A stretch of DNA of 13,707 nt, taken from UHGV virus genome UHGV-1773340; one strand, 5' to 3'. Origin of the DNA: a virus. The translations under genes and the position numbers were made by a program. Shown here piece by piece: positions 1-13,707 of this stretch (its first letter is position 1; every line of letters begins with the position of its first letter). The notes beneath the pieces are model-generated. The model ran no database searches. It saw only the letters and a list, made by a program, of their open reading frames with translations, and was not told the origin of the DNA.

Positions 1-114
1 GGGATGGCGGCGGCACAGGGGGCCAAGACGCTAAGCGAAGCTAAAACTTCGGATCCGAGTGTGTTGTCAGCTATGGCGAATGCAGTTAGTGGTCAGGGTG
101 GGCAATCACAATGA
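1..114 (+). CDS. 3' end of an upstream gene that runs off the window start; probably portal protein C-terminus (5'-truncated here)
   Basis: Frame 1 is open from position 1 to the TGA at 112..114 (…GMAAAQGAKTLSEAKTSDPSVLSAMANAVSGQGGQSQ*). The stop overlaps the ATG of the next gene (ATGA at 111..114). The portal call is inferred only from its position upstream of scaffold and capsid. Confidence 0.45.
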   Translation, partial: GMAAAQGAKTLSEAKTSDPSVLSAMANAVSGQGGQSQ

Positions 115-407
115 CAGATTACGAAGACGATCAACTGAAAGAAGAAAACGCCCGTAAGCAACGTGACATGGCGCAGCGTGAAATTGATGACATTCGCTTT
201 GTCATGAGCAGTGAACAGGGACGTCGCGTTGTCTGGTCGGTGCTGGAGAAAGGCCGTGTGTTTTCCGCTATCTCACCGATGGACGCTATGGCAATGGCAT
301 TTAATGAGGGGCAACGCAATCTGGCGCTGGAACTGTTTCAGCGCGTTATGGCGCATTGCCCTGAACAGTATTTGAAGATGGCCAAAGAGGCCAGTGAACA
401 GGAGTGA
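111..407 (+). CDS. small 98-aa phage protein of unknown function, between the upstream (portal?) gene and the scaffolding gene
   Basis: Complete ORF with an ATG start overlapping the upstream stop. Charged, helical-looking composition. From memory it resembles the small Bbp19-like proteins of BPP-1-type phages; this is unverified. Confidence 0.6.
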   Translation: MTDYEDDQLKEENARKQRDMAQREIDDIRFVMSSEQGRRVVWSVLEKGRVFSAISPMDAMAMAFNEGQRNLALELFQRVMAHCPEQYLKMAKEASEQE

Positions 408-2605: not shown

Positions 2606-2941
2606 ATGTCAGGTAAGAAACCAAGATACCGCGTTCTGCGCCTCTCTCATATCCATAACACACTGTGGCAGGAGGGGGCAGAAATCGAATACGAAGGTGA
2701 GCCTGGTAGCGCACTGGAACCTGTTAACGATGCAGCCAGACAGGCAAAAGCAAAGGTAGCAGGAAAGGTGTCTATGGCAGCAACCAGCACCAAAATCATC
2801 AACGATGTGTCAGATGATGGTGAACTGGATAAGCTCCGTGAAGAGTACGAATTGCTCTTTAACGAGAAGCCACACCATAACGCTAAAGCCGAAACGATCC
2901 GCGAGAAGATCGCAGATAAGCGTAAAGAACTGGGCGTGTAA
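2606..2941 (+). CDS. hypothetical highly charged small virion-module protein (111 aa)
   Basis: ATG at 2606 is preceded by AAGGTGA at 2594..2600; the track's GTG at 2597 is less likely. Lys/Glu/Arg-rich. Followed by a terminator-like hairpin. Confidence 0.55.
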   Translation: MSGKKPRYRVLRLSHIHNTLWQEGAEIEYEGEPGSALEPVNDAARQAKAKVAGKVSMAATSTKIINDVSDDGELDKLREEYELLFNEKPHHNAKAETIREKIADKRKELGV

Positions 2942-2957
2942 GCCTCGCGAATCCGAC

Positions 2958-2980
2958 AAGGGGCTTCGGCCCCTTTATTG
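2958..2980 (+). terminator. candidate rho-independent terminator or attenuator (AAGGGGC-TTCG-GCCCCTT followed by TATTG)
   Basis: A 7-bp stem with five G:C pairs and a TTCG tetraloop (2958..2975), followed by a T-rich tail to 2980. It starts 16 nt after the TAA at 2939..2941. Confidence 0.5.
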
Positions 2981-2991
2981 CAGGAGTGTAT

Positions 2992-3315
2992 ATGGAACTC
3001 GTAAACCTCAAAACCGGCACTGACAGCTACCAGGATGAGAGCGGAGAAACCAGAACTCGCGATGAATACCCGTGGGGGCTGTGCATCACTCTTAATAACG
3101 ACACATTGAATAAGCTGAAGGCGCAACCTCAGGGCGTCGGAACAGAAGTGATGATAACTGCAAAGGCTGTTATTCGAGGCCTGTCTGCCAGAGAAACTGA
3201 CGATGGTGTTAATCGCAGCGCCGATCTGCAGATCACTGATATGGCGATCGCTCCTGTTTCCGGGGATGTAGAAAAATCAGCGGCTGAAACTCTGTACGGT
3301 AACGGAGGTGAGTGA
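2992..3315 (+). CDS. hypothetical 107-aa protein; its C-terminus shares the SAAE-x-LYG motif with the scaffolding protein
   Basis: AGGAG at 2982..2986 lies 5 nt before the ATG at 2992; the track's GTG at 2986 is less likely. The stop TGA at 3313..3315 overlaps the next start. Confidence 0.6.
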   Translation: MELVNLKTGTDSYQDESGETRTRDEYPWGLCITLNNDTLNKLKAQPQGVGTEVMITAKAVIRGLSARETDDGVNRSADLQITDMAIAPVSGDVEKSAAETLYGNGGE

Positions 3316-3920
3316 TGGCCTCTGTAGTAGAGATCTGTAATCGTGCGCTGTCCAATATTGGCAATAGCCGCAGCATTAACAGCCTGACGGAAGCCAGCAA
3401 GGAAGCGGGGGAATGTTCGCTGCACTTTGAGGCCTGCCGTGATGCTGTGCTTTCTGATTTTGACTGGAACTTTGCTACCAAACGCGTGGCGCTTGCAGAT
3501 ACGAGCAATCCACCGCCTGACTGGGAATATGCGTACCAGTACCCGTCCGATTGTCTGCGCATTACTGAAATTATGCTTCCTGGTGTACGCAATCCAACAG
3601 CAGCAATGCGCGTTCAGTACGAAGTTGGTGCAGACACCAACGGAACAGGAAAATTGATCTATACAGACCAGCCGCAGGCATGGCTCAAGTATGTCTCTCG
3701 CGTTTCAGATGTGAACATGTTTGATGCCATTTTTATGGAGGCGCTGGCCTGGCGTCTTGCGGCAGCCATTAACATGGCGCTGACTGGGAATGCGGATCTC
3801 GGTACATTTGCTCTCAATATGTACAATCGCGTGATTCTTAGTGCTGGTTCGCATAGCCAGAATGAATCACAGGAACCACAGCCACCGGTTGACGAGTTTA
3901 CCATTGCGAGGTTGTCCTGA
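3315..3920 (+). CDS. tail tubular protein A-like (T7 gp11-like adaptor/gatekeeper), 201 aa
   Basis: About 200 aa, immediately upstream of an ~820-aa protein, matching the gp11/gp12 pairing. GGAGGTG at 3304..3310 precedes the ATG at 3315 (TGATG overlap). The N-terminal pattern recalls T7 gp11 from memory. Confidence 0.6.
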   Translation: MASVVEICNRALSNIGNSRSINSLTEASKEAGECSLHFEACRDAVLSDFDWNFATKRVALADTSNPPPDWEYAYQYPSDCLRITEIMLPGVRNPTAAMRVQYEVGADTNGTGKLIYTDQPQAWLKYVSRVSDVNMFDAIFMEALAWRLAAAINMALTGNADLGTFALNMYNRVILSAGSHSQNESQEPQPPVDEFTIARLS

Positions 3921-6391
3921 TGGCTATCAGTTGGATCCAGCCCAGCTTTGCTGGTGGTGAGATTGGACCGTCGTTGTACGGTCGTATCGACATGGCGAAG
4001 TACCAGGTGGCATTGCGCAAGTGCGATAACTTTATCGTGCGGCAGTATGGCGGCGTTGAGAATCGACCTGGTACGCGTTTTGTCGGTGCCGCCAAATACC
4101 CAAATCGGAAATGCCGCCTGATCCCGTTCCAGTTCTCGACGGTTCAGACTTATGCTCTGGAGTTCGGACACCAGTACATGCGCGTTATCAAAGATGGTGC
4201 GTTGGTGCTGAACAGCAGCAATGTTATTTATGAAATTGCCACGCCATATACTGAAGCCGATCTGTTCCGAATTAAATTCACGCAAAGCGCAGACGTGCTT
4301 ACGCTTGTTCATCCGGCATACCCGCCGAAAGAGTTGCGTCGCTATGCGCATGACAACTGGCAACTGGTTGATGTGGTAACGAAGAACGGACCATTTGAAG
4401 ATATCAATATTGACGAGTCAGTGACGGTTTATGCCAGCGCCAGCACCGGGACAATTACGTTAACGGCAAGCGCCTCTATTTTTGGCGCGGAGCAGGTAGG
4501 CAAATTGTTCTATCTGGAACAGCCTGCAGTGGATTCAGTGCCGGTATGGGAAACCAGTAAGAGTACGTCGATTGGCGATATTCGCCGTGCAGACAGTAAC
4601 TACTATCGCGCCGTTACAGCAGGCAAAACAGGTACTTTGCGCCCTTCGCATACAGAAGGCACATCATGGGATGGCTGGGGCGGATCCGGTGATGATGATA
4701 CTGGTATTGAGTGGGAATATCTGCACAGTGGTTTTGGCATTGCCCGTATCACTGCTGCAAATGGAACTACTGCAACTGCCGAGGTGATTTCCTATATCCC
4801 TTCGCAGGTCGTTGGCGAGGATAATGCCAGCTATAAATGGGCTAAATATGCCTGGAACAGTGTTAATGGTTATCCTGGCACTGTTGTTTATTATCAACAA
4901 CGTCTTTACTTCGCCGCATCGACTGCGTTCCCTCAGACTATCTGGGCCAGCCGTACCGGGGATTATAAGGATTTTGGCAAAAGCAATCCTACGCAGGATG
5001 ACGACAGAATTATCTACACCTATGCCGGGCGTCAGGTTAATGAGATCCGCCACCTGATTGATGTTGGTTCGCTGGTGGCGCTGACTTCCGGAGGTGAGTA
5101 CGTCATCACCGGCGACCAGAACAAAGTATTAACCCCATCATCATTTGCATTCAGCTCTCAGGGATCAAATGGCTCGAGCAATGTCCCACCAATTGCCGTG
5201 GCGAATATTGCTCTGTTCGTCCAGGAGAAAGGCAGTGTTGTCCGTGATCTGGCCTACTCATTCGATGTTGACGGCTATCAGGGGAACGACCTGACCATCC
5301 TTGCTAATCATCTTTTTCAGAAGCACAGCATCGTTGACTGGTGCTTCTCTATTGTCCCTTACTCCAGCGCCTTCTGCATTCGTGATGACGGTAAATTACT
5401 GGTGATGACCTATTTGCGTGATCAACAGGTTTTTGCATGGGCACCACAGTCCAGTACCGGAAAATATGAAAGCACATGCAGTATCAGCGAAGGAAATGAA
5501 GATGCGGTGTATTTCGTCGTTAACCGAACCGTTAACGGGCAAACAGTGAGATACATCGAGCGGCTGTCCAGCCGTTTATTTACCAGCGATGAAGATGCTT
5601 TCTTTGTTGATTCTGGCCTTAGCTATGATGGAAGAAATACGTCTGACAGAACGATGACCATCACTGGTGGTTCTGGTGAATGGGATTACCGTGCGGAATA
5701 TACAATCAGTGTTTCTGGTGGTGCGTACTTCACCAGTAGTGATGTCGGCGCGCAACTACAGTTCCCTTATACCGGAACTGTTCCTGATACTGGCGATGAA
5801 GTGTCAAAAGAATTACGTTGCGACATTATTTCTGTAACCAGCAATACCGCTGTAGTGGTTCGTGCTAACAGGAACGTCCCGCCATCCCTCAGGAGTGTGG
5901 CCACCACGAACTGGCAGATGGCGCGCCGGACATTTGGAGGCCTGTCTCATCTTGAAGGCCAGGCCGTAAACATTCTCTCTGATGCGAACGTGGAACCACA
6001 GAAAGTGGTTTCCGGAGGTGCCGTCACGCTGGAATCTCCGGGGGCTGTAGTGCACATCGGCCTGCCAATAACTGCTGAATTCGAAACACTGGATATCAAC
6101 ATTAACGGACAGGAAACGCTGCTGGATAAAAAACAGGTAACCCCCTCCGTTACTCTGGTTGTGAATGCCAGTCGCGGCATCTGGGCGACTACGCCCGGCG
6201 GTAAATGGTACGAATATCCACAGCGTGAATTCGAGTTCTACGATGATCCTGTTGATGATGCTACCGGAAAAGTAGAAGTGAAACTGGACAGTAACTGGGG
6301 CAAAAACGGACGTGTAAAAATCCGTCAGCTTGACCCGTTGCCGCTGTCTGTTCTTGCCGTTATTCCTCGCCTTACTGTTGGGGGATTCTGA
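3920..6391 (+). CDS. tail tubular protein B-like (T7 gp12-like nozzle), 823 aa
   Basis: 823 aa. The N-terminus (MAISWIQPSFAGGEIGPSLYGR…ENRPGTRF) resembles the remembered T7 gp12 N-terminus (…KNLKGGISQQP…LQKRPP…). Gene order and TGATG coupling to the previous gene support the call. Confidence 0.65.
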   Translation: MAISWIQPSFAGGEIGPSLYGRIDMAKYQVALRKCDNFIVRQYGGVENRPGTRFVGAAKYPNRKCRLIPFQFSTVQTYALEFGHQYMRVIKDGALVLNSSNVIYEIATPYTEADLFRIKFTQSADVLTLVHPAYPPKELRRYAHDNWQLVDVVTKNGPFEDINIDESVTVYASASTGTITLTASASIFGAEQVGKLFYLEQPAVDSVPVWETSKSTSIGDIRRADSNYYRAVTAGKTGTLRPSHTEGTSWDGWGGSGDDDTGIEWEYLHSGFGIARITAANGTTATAEVISYIPSQVVGEDNASYKWAKYAWNSVNGYPGTVVYYQQRLYFAASTAFPQTIWASRTGDYKDFGKSNPTQDDDRIIYTYAGRQVNEIRHLIDVGSLVALTSGGEYVITGDQNKVLTPSSFAFSSQGSNGSSNVPPIAVANIALFVQEKGSVVRDLAYSFDVDGYQGNDLTILANHLFQKHSIVDWCFSIVPYSSAFCIRDDGKLLVMTYLRDQQVFAWAPQSSTGKYESTCSISEGNEDAVYFVVNRTVNGQTVRYIERLSSRLFTSDEDAFFVDSGLSYDGRNTSDRTMTITGGSGEWDYRAEYTISVSGGAYFTSSDVGAQLQFPYTGTVPDTGDEVSKELRCDIISVTSNTAVVVRANRNVPPSLRSVATTNWQMARRTFGGLSHLEGQAVNILSDANVEPQKVVSGGAVTLESPGAVVHIGLPITAEFETLDININGQETLLDKKQVTPSVTLVVNASRGIWATTPGGKWYEYPQREFEFYDDPVDDATGKVEVKLDSNWGKNGRVKIRQLDPLPLSVLAVIPRLTVGGF

Positions 6392-6855
6392 TGATCGATG
6401 TTCGAATTATTCCCGCCACCGAAGAGCATCTTCAGATGATTTTGCCGGATGTTCGTCAGGCTGATATTGACGAACTGTATGCGGTATCACTGATGACTAC
6501 CGAAGATGCGCTGCGTGTTGGTCTGCGTACTGCGACTATGGCCTGGTCAGGATTTGCGAACGGAGAACTGGTAACCATGTTTGGCGTATCTCCGGCGTCA
6601 ATGATCGGTGGCAATGGTACGCCCTGGCTGGTCGGAACCAGCCGTATTGAAAAATATCAGAAGACATTTCTTCGCCACTGCCGCCCGGTATTGCAGCAGA
6701 TGCTGGCAGTTTATCCGCGCCTGGAAAACTATGTCGACGAGCGAAACCATGTTGCCAAAGCATGGCTGCACTGGCTTGGATTCAGGCTTGAAGAAGCCGC
6801 GCCTTATGGTGCTCTTGGTCTTAATTTCCACAGATTTCACATGGAGAGAAAATAA
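6391..6855 (+). CDS. internal virion protein at the gp13 position, 154 aa; possible GNAT-like fold
   Basis: TGATG overlap with the previous gene. The C-terminal segment …ERNHVAKAWLHWLGFRLEE resembles the N-x-x-A-x-x-L-x-x-x-GF motif of acetyltransferase-type folds. This is a weak, motif-level observation. Confidence 0.55.
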   Translation: MIDVRIIPATEEHLQMILPDVRQADIDELYAVSLMTTEDALRVGLRTATMAWSGFANGELVTMFGVSPASMIGGNGTPWLVGTSRIEKYQKTFLRHCRPVLQQMLAVYPRLENYVDERNHVAKAWLHWLGFRLEEAAPYGALGLNFHRFHMERK

Positions 6856-7400
6856 TGTGCGATCCGGTTATTGCTGGTGGCGCAATGCTCGCCATGAGTG
6901 GCATTCAGGCATACACCCAGTACCAACAGGGAAAGTATGCCTCGAAGGTTGCAGAAGCGAACGCAGATATAGCCACAGCTCAGGCAAATGATGCAATAAA
7001 CAGAGGTAACGCTGAAGCTGAGCAACGGCGCAGAGAGACCCGACAGCGGCTTGGTACACAGGCGGCGACAATGGGGGCTACCGGCGCTGATTTATCTACA
7101 GGTAACGCGCTGGATATATTTGGCGACACTGCCCAGTTTGGCGCTCTTGATTCTCTGACGACGGTGAATAACGCGCAACGCGAGGCTTACGGTTATCAGG
7201 TTCAGGCTGCCAACTATAAAGCAGAAGCCAGTTCAGTCCGTAAACAGGGGAATGTGGGAGCAGCAACAACATTGCTCACTGCGCCTCTGAAGGCATACGG
7301 TGCGTACCAGATGTTTGGTGGGACGTGGAGTCCGTTTACTCAAAGCACCCCTGCGCCAATCGGGGCAGCAGCAGGAACCAGATTACCCGGAGGATTATAA
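6855..7400 (+). CDS. internal virion protein B-like (T7 gp14-like), 181 aa
   Basis: The N-terminus [20 protein letters not shown]… recalls the T7 gp14 N-terminus (MC…I…SGAQA…). The protein is Ala/Gly/Gln-rich, about the same size as gp14, and in the gp14 position. GGAGAG at 6843..6848 precedes the start; TAATG overlap. Confidence 0.6.
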
Positions 7401-10216
7401 TGCCAGTCGTACCAACAGTATCCGGCCGTCAGGTTCAGAGCCGTGGAGTTCAGTCAGCAGGCTTGCAGACGTTTTCTCAGCCAGGTATTGGTGATGCTTT
7501 TGTTCGGGCAGGGACAGAGGCAATTGATGTTTTTGGTCAGGCAAAACAGCGTGCCAATATCGCTCTGGCTCAGGAGGCATCTCTTAACCTCAGTCAGATA
7601 AGCAGTGATCTGCTGAATAATCCTGAAACAGGATTGCTTAACCTGAAAGGGAAAAATGCTATTGGAAAAGGTCAGGAGTATACGCAGCAGTTTGATGCTC
7701 AGGTCGAACAACTGGCTATGTCGCTGCCGGATGAACAGGCTCGTAATGCTTTCATGCAGCAGGCGCAGCAGCAGCGCATTCAGTTCACTACGCAGGCAGG
7801 GCGGCACGAGATAGGGCAAATAAATGCCTACGAAGAAGGCCAGTTTCAGGCTACGCTGCTGAACAATGGTAAAAATTCCGCAGCATTGTATGGCGACAAC
7901 GCCGCATACGTATTGGCTAATAAGCAAACTTTCCAGCAAATTGAGGATTACGGCATTGCACATGGCTGGAGTGACGAGCAAATCCAGGCCAAGAAAATCG
8001 AGTTTAAAGAGAAGGTTGCTGATGCTGCATTGTCCCAGTGGTCAGCAAATAACGCGATCGGCTTCATTCAGAGCAACGGTGAGCTGAGCGACACGGTAGC
8101 CGGTTCACGGCGGGCTACTGTTAACCCTTATGGTGGTGAGCCATCATCTACGAAAGGAATGGTTACCCAGGGGAACATTAACTTATTCAACCGACCATCT
8201 GTAAAAAACGAAGATGGTACTATCAGCACGGTAAGAACTATTTCCATAGGCACTGATGCAGGTGAAGTCCTGATACCAACGGTCAGTGATGACGGTAAAT
8301 TACTTTCAGATGATGAAGCAATCGCGCTATATGAAAAAACAGGAAAGCACCTTGGAATATTTGATAATCCTGATGATGCGACTGCATATGCTGAAAAGTT
8401 GCACGAGCAGCAAGATCAGTATTATGTGAAAGGTGATAGCGGCGATGCCAGGGGTATCCGCAACAATAACCCAGGAAACCTTGAAGCCAGCTCATCAAAC
8501 CCATGGATTGGGCAGACTGGTAGTGATGGCCGGTTTGCAAAATTCGAGACTCCGGAGCATGGGATCCGCGCGCTGGGCCGCAACCTCATATCCTACCAGC
8601 GACAGGGGATTGATACCGTTGGCGAGATCATTAACCGTTGGGCGCCGCCGTCTGACAATAACGACACGGCTGCATACATCAAAGCAGTTTGCGCGCAGTT
8701 AGGCGTAACGGCAAACCAGCCTCTTGACGCTTCCAATCCTGACACGCTGCAGGCACTCTGTGCCGCCATCATTAAGCATGAAAACGGCAGTCAGCCATAC
8801 AGCCAGGATCAGTTGTCCACCGGCGTCAGCGCAGCTCTTGGGCTGTCACAGTTGCCAACCAGCAATAAACGCTACACCGGCAATGCAGCATTCGACGCCG
8901 CCACGCCGGAAGCGCAGGCCACTTTTCTGCGCCAGGCTGATCAGATCCGCCGGCAGCAGCAGGCCGAATACAGAACGGTTATCGATAGCCAGGTTCGCGA
9001 CGCCACCGCGGCTTACATGCGAGGTGTTGAGTTCCCAAACCCGCCAGGGGAAGCTGATTTTATGGCTGCCTACGGCGTGCGGGAGGGAAACCAGCGTTAC
9101 ACCGAATTCAGGAATACGCAGATTGCCGGGCAGTACATTGGCTCATTCCGCAACATGCCGACAAGCAGCATTACAGCATATGTTGAGCAATTACGCCCGG
9201 ATACTGGTGAGACAGGGGAGGGTTATGCGGCACGAGCCGCTCTTTATGACAACGTTGTGTCGGCTGCAAGTCAGGTGATAAAGCAGCGACAGGCTGATCC
9301 TGTACAGTTCTCTCTTGCCGCCGGACAGGCAAAGCCTATCGACATGAGCAATAAGGATAACTTTGGACAGAGCGTTGCCTTGCGTGCTGCTCAGGTCAGT
9401 GACCTTGCTAAGTCATATGGCACTCCACTGACGTTCTTTTCCAAAGACGAGGCCAATCAGATCGGTGTTTTCTTTCGTGATGCGCCCGTTTCCCAACAGG
9501 CAGCATATCTCGATACCATCAGGCAGAGCACTGGTGGTGGGCAGGTGTATATGTCAGCACTACAGCAGATCAGTGCCAACGCTCCATCTGCTGCCGTTGC
9601 CGGGATACTGATGGATAAGCCTGGTGGTATTTTGGCAGAAAAAAACTGGTTTAATCCGGATGTTTCCGTGTCTCCTGAAACCGCTGCGCAGACAATTCTT
9701 GCTGGCGCGGCGGCTCGTAAAGGTACTGATGATGCGAAAGGTATTCCGATGCCTAAAGATGCTGATCTTCGCCTTGAGTTTTCTGACATGGTGAAGGATG
9801 CATTTGCTGGTGACGCTCAGGGGGCATCAATGGCATACGAGATCGCAAAGGATTATTACGCTGGTGTGATGGCGAAAAAAGGCGTGGTATCAGGCGAAAT
9901 TGACAATGATGTCTGGAAACAGGCTGTTAACGTAGCTACAGGTGGCGTGCATGACTATAACGGAATGGGGAATGTCCTTTTGCCGTGGGGAATGTCTGCA
10001 GAGCAATTCGATAAGCAGGTTAATCAGGCTTGGAATGAACAAGTTGTCGGCTCCGGGATAAAAACACCGCCTGGTCAGTATGGTTTGCAAAGTTACGGCG
10101 ATAGTCAGTACCTGGTGAAACTTGGTACTGGTTATCTGCTGAAAGATGATGGTTCTCCCGTTGTTCTTAATCTGACACAGAAGCGTCAGAGATTCTCCGG
10201 AGATATTCCGCAATGA
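7400..10216 (+). CDS. large internal virion/ejection protein (938 aa) at the gp15 position, with a central conserved-looking module
   Basis: GGAGGA at 7389..7394 lies 5 nt before the ATG at 7400, which overlaps the upstream TAA. The track's start at 7325 would overlap the upstream gene by 75 nt and is rejected. A central segment (nt about 8440..8830: …[45 protein letters not shown]…[13 protein letters not shown]…) looks like a globular, possibly enzymatic domain. Confidence 0.7.
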
Positions 10217-12015
10217 GTTACTTTGGCCTTAATCCAGTAAACCAGAATCAGCAGCTTGACGAAGCAGCATCAAATCCAGCTGGCTTTAACAGCGATGTTG
10301 GTTTTTTCGACAATGCTGTAGGAGCGGCATTGTCTGGTTTGTACTCCGGGCTGGTGGCAAAGCCAGATCAGTTGCTATGGGCAGGGATGGATAAAATCGT
10401 ATCCCCGATCGCTCAGTTTGTTAACGAAAACACCTCGCTCAATGACACTTCAGTTTCATACATTGCTGAGCAGAGAAAACTAGCAGAGCAGCAGGTTAAG
10501 CGGCTGACGCCTGATGCCGCGACAACCGGAACCGCCGGGCAGGTTCTTTATGGGTTGTTCGATATGGGCGGGCAGGCTGTTGTCGGTACAACGCTCGGTG
10601 GTCCTGTCGGAGGTGCAGCGGCGGTAACTTCGCTACAGGGTTTTTCTGAGTTTGAACGGCTGACAGCACAGGGGGTTGATTTCAGGACGGCGCAGGAAGC
10701 GGGATTAGTGCAGGGCATTACTGCTGGTGCCGGAACACTGATCCCTATGAGCCTCGGGTTACGTGCTGGTGGTGCGCTGGCGGAAGGTGTGGCGGCTCAG
10801 CTTGCGCGGACGGGTGAGAGTTCAGTGCGACGCGCCGCAGCAACAGCAGTACGTGCAACGCCAGATATTGCCTATGCCGCAGGTACAAATATTGCGTTCG
10901 GTATGGCACAGCGTGGGCTTACTGCAAAAACGCTTCGTGATGGTGGCTATAGCGAAATGGCTAACCAGTATGATGTGTTGGATCGACAGGCAATTGCTAT
11001 TGATGCTGTTCTTGGGGTGGCGTTTGGTGGTGTCGGCAGATTTATTAACTCTCGCGGCGAGTCTACAAACGCACCAAATTTTTCACCAGTTGATATCGAT
11101 GCTGCACTGGCGGCGAATGCCGCTCATCATGCTGAAATTGATATTGCGCCCGGCGTGCCGATCAACGTGCTTTCGCGCAATTCTCACATTCAGGCTCTGC
11201 GAAAAGCTATGTCTGATGTTAGCCAGGGGAGATCTGTAGACGTTGCCAGCATTGTTGAGTCTGCATCTTTCAGTGAAATTCCTGGGCGCAAGAGTCTGCT
11301 GTCTCAGGCAGTTAATGAGGCTCTGTCATCTGTAGATGATGGAGTAACGGCGCGCGCTATAGAAAATCGGTTGCTTGAAGAACAGGCCGCGCAGCTTTTG
11401 CCGCGTGGAGATAGACAGGTTTACCAGTCTGAAATCGCTAATAGCCAACGAATTATTGAAAATCTCAATGAACAGCGTGCACAAATTCTTGCAGAAGATC
11501 CAACCGGTAGCGGTAAAGCTTTGTCTCGTGCTCGATCAGATAAACAGGCCAGACTTCGCGATATTGATCAACGAATCCGGCAGGCACAAGAACGCCTGGA
11601 ATTTTCCCGTAACGCGTTGGCACCGCACGAGCCTGGCGGTCAGTTTTTTGAAGCTCGAGCAGAACTGGCTCGGAGACAGCAGGCAGAAAGTGAACTTAAT
11701 GCTCAGGCTGTTTCATTCTATAAAACAGCAGAGGTCAGGACGCCAGACGAAGTAGCTCCTTTTGAGCTTGATAAAATATTGCAACAGGCAGAACAAAAAA
11801 TGATGGCGGATCAGGCGGGAGATATTGATCTGCGCATAGCTGAAGACTCGCTGCTTGAATCACCTGACATGATAATCACCGTGCTGGATGATGATGGTAA
11901 TCCACAATCGCGCAGCGCGCGTGAAGTACTGGATGAAGCGAACAGGGAAAGTGAGCAGGCAATACAGGATTCCAGCCTGTTTGATGTCGCTGTGGCGTGT
12001 TTCTTGAGAGGTTAA
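10213..12015 (+). CDS. internal virion/ejection protein (600 aa) with Gly/Ala-rich hydrophobic segments and a charged helical C-terminal half
   Basis: ATGA overlap with the previous gene. Residues about 105..280 contain several GxxxG/A-rich hydrophobic stretches (for example [19 protein letters not shown] and [31 protein letters not shown]). The C-terminal half is Arg/Glu/Gln-rich and coiled-coil-like. Confidence 0.7.
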
Positions 12016-12020
12016 ATTAA

Positions 12021-13707
12021 ATGAGACAGGAATGTATACAAGCGGTCCAGCAGGCGGCGCAGCGCACGTTAACGGCGCGAGAAATACAGAACATTGAAGA
12101 CCGCATTTATCGAAATATGCGCTCCATTGCTCGTGATGACCCGATGTCGTGGAGACAACTTTCCGAATCAGAGCGGCTATATCGTGCAGCACAATTGGCA
12201 TCTGAAGAATTACAGCGAGAAGCGACATTAAAGAAACGTCGTGTGGCCCTCACTATAGCCGCACGTCAGAGATTGGATAAATTTATCAATAGCTATCAAG
12301 GGGCTGATGGGAAACTTGGCGCTCTTAACCGTACTATTGCTTTTAATGCAGACGGTAAATCGAATTTCCTCTCTGTTGAATCCAGAACAAAAGCCACTCG
12401 TGATTATGCATTGAGTCAATTGCAGGAGGCATTTGAAGCAGTTGATCCTCGCTTTTTTGGCCTGTTTGAAGATGAATCGGGCGTGCGTGACTTGGTATAT
12501 GAAATGCGAGGGAAAAATACTGGCAATGCTAAAGCAAGAAAAGGTGCTAAGGCGTGGAGAGAAGTGACAGATCTACTGCGCCGCCGGTTTAATGATGCTG
12601 GTGGGGACATTGGCTATCTCGAAAACTGGGGGATCCCTCAACATCATTCTATGGAAAAGGTTGGGGCGGTATCAAAAGATAAATGGGTTAGCGATGTTAT
12701 AGGTAAGCTGGATCGCAAATATTATACCCGAGCCGATGGACAACTGATGAACGATGACGAGTTGTCTGCATTTCTTGGAGAGGCTTATAACACGATCGCT
12801 ACTGGTGGGCTGAATAAGCTTACTGATACCGGAATGCGAATTTCCGGCGCACGTGCTAACCGTGGTAATGCATCACGACAGATACATTTCAAAGATGCAG
12901 ATTCCTATCTGCAATATCAGCAACTTTATGGCGATCGCTCTCTATGGGAAATCATGGTCGGTCACCTGGAAGGTATCAGTAAAGATATTGCACTGGTGGA
13001 AACATATGGCCCAAACCCCGATCATGTTTTCCGCTCTCTTCTTGATCAGGTGAAGGCAGAAACGGCAACAGCTAACCCGAGTAAAACCGGTAAAGTCGAG
13101 CGGCTGGCGAACAACACAGAGAATCTGTACAACTTTATTTCCGGAAAGACACAGCCTGTAGCGAATCCGCACATCGCGCGATGGTCTGACAATATCCGCA
13201 ACTGGCTGGTTGCCAGCAGACTCGGATCCGCGTTGCTATCATCGTTCTCTGATCTTGGAACCATGTATCTGTCTGCGAAGGTTACCAACCTTCCAATGAA
13301 TCAGTTATTCCGCAACCAGCTTGAAGCTATGGACCCAACGAACCGTACAGAACTTGCGCGGGCGCGCCGCGCTGGTCTGGCGATGGAATCTTTACTTGGC
13401 AGCGTTAACCGCTGGGCGATGGATAATATGGGGCCGTCAGTGTCTCGTTGGGCGGCAACGGCGGTAATGCGTGCCAGTGGGCTTACAGCATGGTCAGATG
13501 CGCACAAGCGCGCCTATGGCGTAACCATGATGGGAAGCCTGGGAGAAGTAGTGTCACGGACAGCAGACCTTCGTAGCCTCGATGACTCTGATTTTCGTAT
13601 CCTGAAAAGCAAAGGGATTACTGACACAGACTGGAGAGTATGGAAGCTGGCGCAACAGGAGGACTGGGGGAACGGTAATAATACGATGCTGACACCGGAA
13701 AGCATTA
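12021..13707 (+). CDS. large internal virion protein, 3'-truncated (more than 562 aa within the window); gp16 position
   Basis: Not in the supplied ORF track because it has no stop in the window. I translated frame 3 from the ATG at 12021 to the window end and found no stop codon (MRQECIQAVQQAAQRTLTAREIQNIEDRIYRNMRSIARDDPMSWRQL…TMLTPESI). GAGAGG at 12006..12011 lies 9 nt upstream. Same strand and operon as the preceding genes. Confidence 0.7.
   Translation, partial: MRQECIQAVQQAAQRTLTAREIQNIEDRIYRNMRSIARDDPMSWRQLSESERLYRAAQLASEELQREATLKKRRVALTIAARQRLDKFINSYQGADGKLGALNRTIAFNADGKSNFLSVESRTKATRDYALSQLQEAFEAVDPRFFGLFEDESGVRDLVYEMRGKNTGNAKARKGAKAWREVTDLLRRRFNDAGGDIGYLENWGIPQHHSMEKVGAVSKDKWVSDVIGKLDRKYYTRADGQLMNDDELSAFLGEAYNTIATGGLNKLTDTGMRISGARANRGNASRQIHFKDADSYLQYQQLYGDRSLWEIMVGHLEGISKDIALVETYGPNPDHVFRSLLDQVKAETATANPSKTGKVERLANNTENLYNFISGKTQPVANPHIARWSDNIRNWLVASRLGSALLSSFSDLGTMYLSAKVTNLPMNQLFRNQLEAMDPTNRTELARARRAGLAMESLLGSVNRWAMDNMGPSVSRWAATAVMRASGLTAWSDAHKRAYGVTMMGSLGEVVSRTADLRSLDDSDFRILKSKGITDTDWRVWKLAQQEDWGNGNNTMLTPESI

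What the first reader, a model, noticed from the sequence alone, without database searches (positions are those of the whole stretch)
10213..12015. 600-aa protein with glycine-zipper-like hydrophobic helices; candidate membrane channel component of the ejectosome
Residues about 105..280 (nt about 10530..11045) contain repeated small-residue patterns of the GxxxG/A type, such as [50 protein letters not shown] and [17 protein letters not shown]. These are typical of membrane-inserting, oligomerising helices. The C-terminal half is a long charged, coiled-coil-like region. Together with its place in the internal-protein cassette, this suggests a protein that inserts into the host envelope to form the DNA conduit. 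It is not obviously similar to T7 gp15 or gp16.
Basis: partly seen in the sequence, partly recalled or inferred. Interest (0 to 1): 0.5.

Follow-up and report, generated by a model that had tools for sequence, protein, structure and literature searches.

The report
Cargo-slot ejection protein of an epsilon15-like phage
This gene is the phiV10/epsilon15 "gp16" internal virion protein, and its large family has conserved N- and C-terminal ends flanking a swappable middle that in other phages holds enzymes meant for the host, so it is probably injected with the DNA, although no channel role is shown.

Summary
The ORF at 10213-12015 (+, 600 aa) is real. It is 97.5% identical to phiV10 gp19 and homologous to epsilon15 gp16, and matches PHROG 1145 (unknown function) end to end. 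There is no Pfam, NCBIfam or PDB match.

The quoted Gly/Ala-rich stretches exist and are conserved across the family. They are only semi-hydrophobic (Kyte-Doolittle 1.2-1.7, estimated insertion energy above +5 kcal/mol). GxxxG spacing is no more frequent than the local composition predicts. T7 gp16's putative membrane segments are of the same class.

The family has 1316 representative clusters. Of 127 long representatives, 124 have a conserved N-terminal all-helical module (aa 1-357), a variable middle of 50-1692 aa, and a conserved 55-aa tail at the exact C-terminus. The other three include two sequence artefacts.

In longer members the middle holds polyvalent-protein enzymes: ADP-ribosyltransferase, ddrB-ParB, Zeta toxin, GGDEF, RelA/SpoT, an RNase and SLT. 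Three such members sit in the same gene slot.

In close relatives the middle changes about 10-20 times faster at nonsynonymous sites than the two ends.

Best reading: a packaged, ejected carrier protein. Membrane interaction of the N-module is plausible but inferred. A DNA-channel role is not shown. The downstream gp17-like protein is an equally good membrane candidate.

The parts
10213..12015 (+). Whole gene, 600 aa plus stop. Orthologue of phiV10 gp19 (PhiV10p19) and homologue of epsilon15 gp16. Member of PHROG 1145.
10213..11283 (+). N-module (aa 1-357). Conserved, all-helical and Gly/Ala-rich, always at the exact N-terminus of family members. Nearly invariant: G106, G154, D156, T159, A160, G174, P178, G230, R234, L241, G245, Y246, A250, Q252, Y253, D257, D264, G268, F271, D296, P313, G314, H325.
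10531..10668 (+). Predicted long helix, aa 107-152, with semi-hydrophobic Gly-rich core ([21 protein letters not shown] 1.23; Eisenberg <H> 0.57, muH 0.06).
10681..10740 (+). Predicted helix, aa 157-176. It overlaps the second semi-hydrophobic segment, aa 165-183 ([21 protein letters not shown] 1.32), which runs past the helix and across invariant P178.
10753..10872 (+). Lineage-specific insertion, aa 181-220, present in about one third of family members. Low AF2 confidence.
10951..11049 (+). Predicted helix, aa 247-279, holding the most hydrophobic segment ([21 protein letters not shown] 1.74). The nearly invariant D264 sits in its middle.
11284..11844 (+). Variable middle ('cargo slot'), aa 358-544. 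Here it is a charged helical domain with no recognised enzyme domain. It is fast-evolving and exchanged between lineages.
11845..12012 (+). Conserved C-tail, aa 545-600: beta-hairpin (554-568) plus terminal helix ending ...[10 protein letters not shown]. It lies at the exact C-terminus in 123 of 124 family representatives.
6391..6855 (+). Cassette partner: 154-aa protein, homologue of epsilon15 gp13 (IVP-A; GNAT-like per the epsilon15 record). PHROG 308.
6855..7400 (+). Cassette partner: 181-aa T7 gp14-family internal virion protein (PF24072).
7400..10216 (+). Cassette partner: 938-aa gp15-like internal protein with a transglycosylase region. The real start is ATG 7400. Its stop overlaps the target's ATG.
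12021..13707 (+). Cassette partner: 5' part of the gp17-like virion structural protein (PHROG 684; IVP-D candidate). It runs off the window.

Best explanation
The gene encodes the epsilon15-gp16-type internal virion (ejection) protein of a phiV10-like (Uetakevirus) E. coli phage or prophage.

The protein has three parts:
- A conserved, all-helical, Gly/Ala-rich N-module (aa 1-357).
- A variable middle (aa 358-544).
- A conserved tail of about 55 aa at the very C-terminus.

I propose the two conserved ends are the 'vehicle'. They would put the protein into the capsid core next to the gp15-like and gp17-like proteins, and take it out through the portal and tail into the cell envelope at infection. 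The semi-hydrophobic helices of the N-module would refold against or into a membrane, as is thought for T7 gp16. The middle is the 'passenger'. In other phages it is an enzyme that acts in the host cytoplasm. In this phage it is a fast-evolving charged helical domain of unknown activity.

Shown here: family membership, architecture, synteny, cargo content of relatives, and evolutionary rates.

Inferred: packaging, ejection, membrane interaction and the roles of the two ends.
For: Family and position:
- Full-length match to PHROG 1145. 97.5% identity to phiV10 gp19, and homology to epsilon15 gp16.
- Conserved slot: adaptor, nozzle, gp13-like, T7-gp14-like, transglycosylase protein, THIS protein, gp17-like, tail fibre or spike. 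The core of this order, transglycosylase/head protein - THIS - gp17-like, is seen in phiV10, epsilon15, Ralstonia RpY1, Pseudomonas YA3, Liberibacter SC1 and three metagenomic phage-sized contigs; the SC1 stretch examined does not show the upstream adaptor-to-gp14-like genes.

Architecture:
- 1316 representative clusters.
- 124 of 127 long representatives have both the N-module and the C-tail. The middle is 50-1692 aa. Of the three exceptions, one is a frameshifted allele, one ends in repeat junk, and the third (P0127, 426 aa) simply lacks a C-tail and was not examined further.

Cargo:
- Middles of long members hold ART-PolyVal, ddrB-ParB, Zeta toxin, GGDEF, RelA_SpoT, PBECR3, LPD3 and SLT.
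- This is the repertoire of 'polyvalent proteins', which are predicted to be injected with phage DNA (PMC5512222).

Evolution:
- Against Tyrion and SPN1S (gap-free 600 aa), dN is 0.02-0.12 in the N-module and C-tail and 0.48 in aa 358-450.
- Epsilon15 gp16 shares 64% identity in the middle but only 27-42% in the N-module.

Structure and hydrophobicity:
- AF2 gives an all-alpha model, pLDDT 81.
- The N-module segments have KD 1.23-1.74. The putative membrane regions of T7 gp16 have 1.29-1.44.

Parallel:
- N4 vRNAP has an N-terminal injection region, a middle enzyme and a C-terminal encapsidation region (PMC5512222).
Against: - I found no direct evidence that this protein or epsilon15 gp16 is in the virion. 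From memory, not verifiable here, mass spectrometry of epsilon15 virions reported gp4, 7, 10, 15, 17 and 20 but not gp16.
- GenBank annotators flagged transmembrane helices for other phiV10 and epsilon15 proteins but none for this one.
- The hydrophobic segments fail classical criteria.
- The target's own middle has no recognisable enzyme domain. It could be a spacer rather than an effector.
- There is no fold or sequence relative among solved ejection proteins.
- AF2 inter-domain geometry is uncertain (pTM 0.45).
Confidence: 0.6

Rival explanations
1. Non-packaged assembly factor. The protein acts only inside the infected cell as a chaperone or scaffold that loads the gp17-like protein (and perhaps others) into the procapsid, and is not itself ejected.
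For: - From memory (Guichard et al. 2013, World J Virol; not held), epsilon15 gene 16 mutants lack gp17 in particles.
- Also from memory, gp16 was not among the abundant virion proteins.
- T7 gp13 is a precedent for a cassette gene needed for assembly but not retained in the virion (PMC4819975).
- The gene is annotated only as 'hypothetical protein' in all records.
Against: - Relatives in the same slot carry ART, ddrB-ParB, Zeta-toxin, (p)ppGpp-synthetase-like and GGDEF domains between the same two conserved ends. A late-expressed, non-packaged chaperone has no obvious use for these.
- The strict N-terminal and C-terminal placement of the conserved modules fits a packaging or ejection vehicle better.
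Confidence: 0.15
2. Soluble periplasmic-tunnel subunit (functional analogue of T7 gp15 / IVP-C). It oligomerises into the tube across the periplasm without inserting in a membrane, and the Gly/Ala-rich helices are tight helix-helix packing surfaces.
For: - Position between the IVP-B and IVP-D homologues. Hardies et al. list epsilon15 gp15 and gp16 as positional IVP-C candidates (PMC4819975).
- All-alpha prediction.
- Fast divergence, as noted for IVP-C.
- Hydrophobicity is below classical transmembrane thresholds.
Against: - No homology to T7 gp15 or P22 gp20.
- T7 gp15 has no comparable hydrophobic segment (maximum KD 0.84, against 1.74 here).
- The upstream 938-aa transglycosylase protein is the better IVP-C-like candidate.
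- Cargo enzymes of relatives need cytoplasmic substrates, so at least the middle must pass the inner membrane.
Confidence: 0.15
3. One reading: the protein is the membrane channel itself. Oligomerised glycine-zipper helices would form the pore through which DNA crosses the inner (or outer) membrane.
For: - Three conserved low-charge Gly/Ala-rich helices.
- Eisenberg hydrophobicity of 0.57-0.62 with a low moment for two of them.
- Same class as the T7 gp16 putative transmembrane segments.
- A nearly invariant Asp (D264) in the most hydrophobic helix and a nearly invariant Arg (R234) in another N-module helix could line a pore.
Against: - No GxxxG periodicity beyond composition.
- Estimated insertion energy is at least +5.6 kcal/mol.
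- No similarity to any solved channel or ejectosome protein beyond generic helical hairpins.
- The gp17-like protein is the published IVP-D homologue and has its own hydrophobic segments.
- The T7-gp14-like protein is the expected outer-membrane component.
Confidence: 0.1

Closest known systems
Epsilon15 gp16 / phiV10 gp19 (PHROG 1145, 'unknown function')
   Same: - Orthologue: 97.5% identity to phiV10 gp19.
- 27-64% identity by region to epsilon15 gp16.
- Same length class and same gene slot.
   Different: Nothing essential differs. The family has no assigned function, no Pfam or NCBIfam model and no solved structure.
T7 gp16 (internal virion protein D, inner-membrane part of the ejectosome)
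   Same: - Encoded in the internal-protein cassette.
- Helical.
- Contains several Gly/Ala-rich, low-charge, borderline-hydrophobic segments (KD 1.3-1.4 in T7 gp16, 1.2-1.7 here).
- In T7 a central domain is thought to reach the cytoplasm (PMC8954989).
   Different: - No detectable homology (hhalign probability 0.15%).
- No transglycosylase domain. That sits in the upstream gene.
- Half the size.
- The epsilon15-group homologue of T7 gp16 is reported to be gp17, not gp16 (PMC4819975).
Polyvalent proteins of phages and conjugative elements (Iyer, Burroughs, Aravind 2017)
   Same: - Long members of this family carry the signature domains (ART-PolyVal, ddrB-ParB, Zeta toxin, PBECR3, LPD3, SLT).
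- They lie among virion genes.
- The logic of proteins injected with the DNA applies.
   Different: - The 600-aa protein here has no recognised enzymatic domain, so it is not itself polyvalent.
- The conserved N-module and C-tail are not Pfam families.
- I did not find epsilon15-type phages in that paper by term search.
Coliphage N4 virion RNA polymerase gp50
   Same: Same three-part logic: N-terminal helical region for injection, middle enzyme cargo, and C-terminal region needed for encapsidation (PMC5512222; PMC4819975).
   Different: - About 3500 aa against 600 aa.
- Different, unrelated end modules.
- In N4 the C-terminal part is the reported IVP-D homologue.
T7 gp15 / P22 gp20 (periplasmic tunnel, IVP-C)
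   Same: - Positional equivalence between the gp14-like and the IVP-D-like genes.
- All-alpha.
- Rapid divergence.
   Different: - No homology.
- T7 gp15 and P22 gp20 lack hydrophobic segments (maximum KD 0.84 and 0.79).

Membership tests
Epsilon15 gp16 family (PHROG 1145) | End-to-end sequence match to the family profile | tested here: met
   phrog_1145, E=0, 1076 bits, aa 1-600 against profile positions 1-594 of 594. 97.5% identity to phiV10 gp19.
Epsilon15 gp16 family (PHROG 1145) | Gene slot between the transglycosylase-bearing gp15-like gene and the gp17-like gene of the internal-protein cassette | tested here: met
   Window order. The same order is seen in phiV10, epsilon15, RpY1, YA3, SC1 and three metagenomic contigs.
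Epsilon15 gp16 family (PHROG 1145) | Conserved N-module at the N-terminus plus conserved tail at the exact C-terminus (defined in this work) | tested here: met
   Both are present in the target and in 124 of 127 representatives.
T7 gp16 (IVP-D) | Sequence or profile homology to T7 gp16 | tested here: not met
   hhalign of the 112-sequence profile against T7 gp16: probability 0.15%. No shared PHROG. The profile against PDB sequences, which include T7 core structures, finds nothing.
T7 gp16 (IVP-D) | N-terminal lytic transglycosylase domain | tested here: not met
   No SLT or lysozyme hit in the target. The muralytic region is in the upstream 938-aa protein.
T7 gp16 (IVP-D) | Borderline-hydrophobic Gly/Ala-rich putative membrane segments | tested here: met
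   Target KD19 is 1.23, 1.32 and 1.74. T7 gp16 has 1.29-1.44 in its two published TMH regions.
T7 gp16 (IVP-D) | Ejection into the host and insertion in the inner membrane | not testable with these tools
   Needs infection and fractionation experiments.
T7 gp15 / P22 gp20 (IVP-C, periplasmic tunnel) | Sequence or profile homology | tested here: not met
   hhalign probability 0.15% (T7 gp15) and 0.7% (P22 gp20).
T7 gp15 / P22 gp20 (IVP-C, periplasmic tunnel) | All-alpha protein encoded between the IVP-B and IVP-D genes | tested here: met
   AF2 all-helical. Position. The literature's positional assignment is in PMC4819975. This slot is shared with the upstream 938-aa protein.
P22 gp16 | Sequence or profile homology | tested here: not met
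   hhalign probability 0.12%.
Polyvalent proteins | Two or more domains of disparate biochemical activity in one polypeptide | tested here: not met
   The target has no recognised catalytic domain. Longer family members meet the criterion, for example P0247 with ddrB-ParB plus ART.
Polyvalent proteins | Encoded among virion or injection genes of a phage | tested here: met
Integral membrane protein with classical transmembrane helices | At least one ~19-residue segment with KD >= 1.6 and favourable predicted insertion energy | tested here: inconclusive
   One window at KD 1.74 (aa 260-278), but with summed Hessa dG of +5.6 kcal/mol and a conserved Asp in its centre. Family median is 1.3. TMHMM and DeepTMHMM were not available.
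Glycine-zipper (GxxxGxxxG) helices | i,i+4 small-residue periodicity beyond what composition gives | tested here: not met
   G...G: 7 observed against 4.8 +/- 1.8 in region shuffles (p=0.18). [GAS]xxx[GAS]: 21 against 28.

The most novel reading that the evidence does not exclude
The epsilon15-gp16 family may be a dedicated protein-delivery scaffold of epsilon15/BPP-1-type podophages. A conserved N-terminal translocation and membrane module and a conserved C-terminal docking tail would bracket a freely exchangeable passenger. Phages would use the passenger to inject anti-host enzymes (ADP-ribosyltransferases, ParB-like nucleases, Zeta kinases, nucleotide-signal synthetases). In phiV10-like phages the passenger would be a fast-evolving helical effector. 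If so, the slot at aa 358-544 could be re-engineered to deliver chosen proteins into E. coli or Salmonella with the phage genome.
Probability: 0.4. Interest if true: 0.65.

Novelty: new member of a known kind. Interest (0 to 1): 0.45.

Why it matters
- The proteins of the epsilon15 internal core, and of the tube it forms across the periplasm, have never been assigned (PMC5850374, PMC12391199). This gene family has no function, domain model or structure.
- The family is built as two conserved ends around a swappable, often enzymatic middle. That gives a concrete, testable role: a vehicle for injected proteins.
- It also points to where host-takeover or anti-defence effectors hide in a very common group of temperate podophages of Enterobacteria, Pseudomonas, Ralstonia and Liberibacter.
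- It suggests a natural insertion site for engineering phage-delivered proteins.
- For this particular window the gene is an ordinary orthologue of a known phiV10 gene.

Tried and rejected
**Database searches that found nothing**
- Pfam and NCBIfam on the target.
- PDB by sequence, with the single protein and with a 112-sequence profile.

**Homology hypotheses rejected**
- T7 gp15, T7 gp16, P22 gp16 and P22 gp20.

**Other ideas rejected**
- 'Possible endolysin', the annotation of the Liberibacter SC1 homologue. There is no lysozyme-like sequence or fold match.
- 'M3 family metallopeptidase', a UniRef name on one cluster. Nothing supports it.
- GxxxG periodicity. It is not above composition.
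- The three 'N-module only' representatives as a separate architecture. One (P0122) is a frameshifted allele whose tail is the other-frame ORF 11375-11755. One (P0123) ends in repeat junk. The third (P0127) was not examined further.

- The first protein search returned only near-identical E. coli prophage copies. Diversity came from the representative search.
- The search for related loci on the N-module alignment failed for lack of a conserved short stretch.
- Guichard 2013 and Kropinski 2007 are not held. What I say about them is from memory.
- Table 1 of review PMC8954989 gives 'Epsilon 15 gp11/12/13' sizes that do not fit the epsilon15 record. I did not use it.


Full report
**What the window is**

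The 13.7-kb window is the structural module of a phiV10-like phage or prophage of E. coli. This is genus Uetakevirus, the epsilon15 group.

- The target region is 97-99% identical in DNA to phages HEMP4, phiv142-3 and phiV10.
- Identical proteins occur on E. coli chromosomal contigs.
- The gene order on the + strand is:
  - scaffold/protease-like protein;
  - epsilon15-type major capsid protein (PF20911);
  - Bbp16-like protein;
  - gp10 staple;
  - adaptor-like tail protein;
  - 823-aa nozzle-like tail protein;
  - 154-aa internal virion protein;
  - 181-aa T7-gp14-family protein (PF24072);
  - 938-aa protein with a transglycosylase region;
  - the 600-aa target;
  - a gp17-like virion protein that runs off the window.
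- phiV10 and epsilon15 have the same order. There the target's counterparts are PhiV10p19 and gp16, both annotated 'hypothetical protein'.

**Check of the observation**

- The ORF and the three quoted peptides are there.
- Residues 101-290 are rich in Gly+Ala (34.7%). They contain three low-charge segments with Kyte-Doolittle 19-residue means of 1.23, 1.32 and 1.74.
- These features are conserved. In an alignment of 112 diverse homologues many of the glycines and prolines are invariant or nearly so. The three segments keep a low charge (4-10%) and about 50% small residues.
- Three parts of the description do not hold.
  - The i,i+4 'GxxxG' spacing is not more frequent than in shuffles of the same region (p=0.18). 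Small-xxx-small is depleted.
  - The segments are not classical transmembrane helices. Summed Hessa energies are at least +5.6 kcal/mol. The family median KD is about 1.3, and no member reaches 2.0.
  - Residues 181-220, inside the second quoted stretch, are an insertion found in only about a third of the family.
- The C-terminal half is charged and helical. It is predicted as several helices followed by a beta-hairpin and a terminal helix, not one long coiled coil.

**What the family looks like**

- An exhaustive search of 1.84 billion cluster representatives found 1316 relatives at E up to 1e-3 and 705 at E up to 1e-10. Lengths range from about 420 to 2125 aa.
- Alignment shows three parts:
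  - a conserved N-terminal module (query aa 1-357);
  - a middle that does not align across the family;
  - a conserved stretch of about 55 aa ending '...FxAAVxCFLR' at the C-terminus.
- I built HMMs of the two ends and ran them against the 127 representatives of 400 aa or more.
  - 124 have both ends.
  - The N-module always starts at residue 1.
  - The tail ends within 5 residues of the C-terminus in 123 of 124.
  - The middle ranges from 50 to 1692 aa, with a median of 253.
- Of the three exceptions, one is a frameshifted allele whose tail is the other-frame ORF 11375-11755 of this window, and one ends in repeat junk. The third (P0127, 426 aa) was not examined further.

**The middle is a cargo slot**

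- In the longer members Pfam finds, between the two conserved ends: ART-PolyVal, ddrB-ParB, Zeta toxin, GGDEF, RelA/SpoT, AAA_33, the RNase PBECR3, LPD3 and SLT.
- This is the repertoire of the 'polyvalent proteins'. Iyer, Burroughs and Aravind inferred these to be packaged and injected with phage or plasmid DNA (PMC5512222).
- Three such members were looked up on their contigs. These contigs are 33-44 kb, the size of a phage genome. The members were:
  - 1740 aa with ddrB-ParB plus ART;
  - 2125 aa with ART;
  - 1154 aa with ddrB-ParB plus Zeta.
- Each sits in exactly the target's slot: adaptor, nozzle, a ~130-140-aa protein, a ~170-200-aa protein (matching T7 gp14 weakly in one contig), a 674-912-aa protein (SLT hit in two of the three contigs), the family member, an ~840-aa protein, then a tail fibre or spike.
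- Ralstonia RpY1 and Pseudomonas YA3 show the same order with short members. In Liberibacter SC1 the stretch examined shows only the head protein, the family member, the gp17-like protein and the tail fibre.

**Evolution within close relatives**

- The target, Tyrion and SPN1S proteins are all 600 aa and align without gaps.
- Nonsynonymous divergence is 0.02-0.12 in the N-module and C-tail, with dN/dS about 0.03-0.05.
- It is 0.48 in aa 358-450 and 0.25 in aa 451-544.
- The DNA match to Tyrion stops abruptly at nt 1097, about aa 366.
- Epsilon15 gp16 shows the reverse pattern: only 27-42% identity in the N-module but 64% in aa 358-450.
- The middle therefore evolves, and is exchanged, independently of the ends.

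**Structure**

- AlphaFold2 on the 112-sequence alignment gives an all-alpha model with mean pLDDT 80.7 and pTM 0.45.
  - Long helices lie at 35-74, 80-98, 107-152, 157-176, 204-243 and 247-279.
  - The middle has helices at 398-427, 435-472 and 477-503.
  - The C-terminus has a hairpin plus a helix.
- The N-module alone gives pLDDT 76 and pTM 0.62.
- Profile comparisons with T7 gp15, T7 gp16, P22 gp16 and P22 gp20 are all negative.

**Calibration of the hydrophobic segments**

- The regions of T7 gp16 that the literature calls putative transmembrane regions (aa 243-410 and 1119-1290; PMC8954989) contain Gly/Ala-rich segments with KD 1.29-1.44. That is the same class as the target's 1.23-1.74.
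- T7 gp15, P22 gp20 and the window's 938-aa protein have none.
- On the Eisenberg scale, helices 107-152 and 247-279 reach mean hydrophobicity of 0.57 and 0.62 with low moments.
- Membrane interaction after ejection is therefore plausible by analogy, but it is not predicted by strict criteria.
- The gp17-like protein also has such segments (phiV10 gp20, aa 655-743). Hardies et al. link this protein to T7 gp16 by HMM-HMM matching (PMC4819975). The target is therefore not the only membrane candidate.
- Hardies et al. list epsilon15 gp15 and gp16 together as positional IVP-C candidates, without sequence support.

**Interpretation**

- The best-supported reading is an internal virion protein that is ejected into the host. 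Its conserved ends serve incorporation and translocation, and its middle is a passenger.
- The N4 virion RNA polymerase is a known protein with this logic. It has an N-terminal injection region, a middle enzyme and a C-terminal encapsidation region.
- Packaging and ejection are inferred from synteny and from the cargo of relatives. Membrane interaction of the N-module is inferred from composition and the T7 analogy. A pore or DNA-conduit role is not supported by anything specific.
- The main rival is a non-packaged assembly factor. It rests on my recollection that epsilon15 gene 16 mutants fail to incorporate gp17 and that gp16 was not among the abundant virion proteins. Those papers could not be read here.
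- The core of epsilon15 has been seen by cryo-EM, but its proteins have not been assigned.

**Novelty and score**

- The gene itself is an ordinary orthologue of a known, uncharacterised phage gene, so I file it as a new member of a known kind (internal or ejection proteins of podophages).
- I did not find the bookend-plus-cargo architecture of the whole family, or its link to polyvalent-protein effectors, described in the literature available here. It is the interesting part.
- Interest 0.45. The novel reading has probability about 0.4 and would deserve about 0.65.

Noticed in passing
window 7325-10216 (+), especially 8126-8443: The upstream internal protein really starts at ATG 7400, not at the GTG 7325 listed by the ORF finder. 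It is 938 aa against 837 aa in phiV10 gp18. The difference is an insertion of about 101 aa (aa 243-348) in an otherwise 93-94% identical protein. The insertion lies in the lowest-GC stretch of the first 11 kb of the window. A second internal protein therefore also shows modular insertion.
   Followed up: partly
window 11375-11755 (+, other frame): This 126-aa out-of-frame ORF is not a gene. Its translation is the C-terminal part of database protein P0122 (513 aa), which is a frameshifted allele or sequencing error of the target gene in some E. coli assemblies.
   Followed up: yes
L001 (phiV10) 13809-16283; window 12021-13707: The gp17-like protein downstream is cut by the window end. In phiV10 it has two Gly/Ala-rich semi-hydrophobic segments at aa 655-743, like the C-terminal putative membrane region of T7 gp16. 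It is an equally good or better inner-membrane candidate.
   Followed up: partly
L002 (epsilon15) 8989-10893 against window 11284-11844: Epsilon15 gp16 is mosaic relative to the target. It has 27-42% identity in the N-module but 64% in aa 358-450. This implies exchange of the middle segment between lineages.
   Followed up: yes
window 11002-11004 (codon of D264) and 10912-10914 (R234): A nearly invariant Asp sits in the centre of the most hydrophobic helix, and a nearly invariant Arg lies in another helix of the N-module. They could form a buried salt bridge in the packaged fold, or be functional residues after refolding. This is unexplained.
   Followed up: no
literature: PMC8954989 Table 1 against L002: The review's 'Epsilon 15' ejection proteins (gp11 229 aa, gp12 499 aa, gp13 708 aa) do not match the epsilon15 genome record (gp11 201-aa tail protein, gp12 825 aa, gp13 154 aa). 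They look like those of a P22-like phage. Its conclusions about epsilon15 clustering with P22 should not be relied on.
   Followed up: partly
L005 (Liberibacter phage SC1) 6464-7900: The SC1 homologue of this family is annotated 'possible endolysin' (and 'putative endolysin' in P-PA19-1). Nothing in sequence or predicted fold supports a lytic enzyme, so the annotation is probably wrong.
   Followed up: partly
window, minus strand (e.g. 539-1120, 2647-3126, 3659-4363, 11860-12228): All long minus-strand ORFs lie antisense to well-supported + strand structural genes. They have no family matches of their own in the records examined and look spurious.
   Followed up: no
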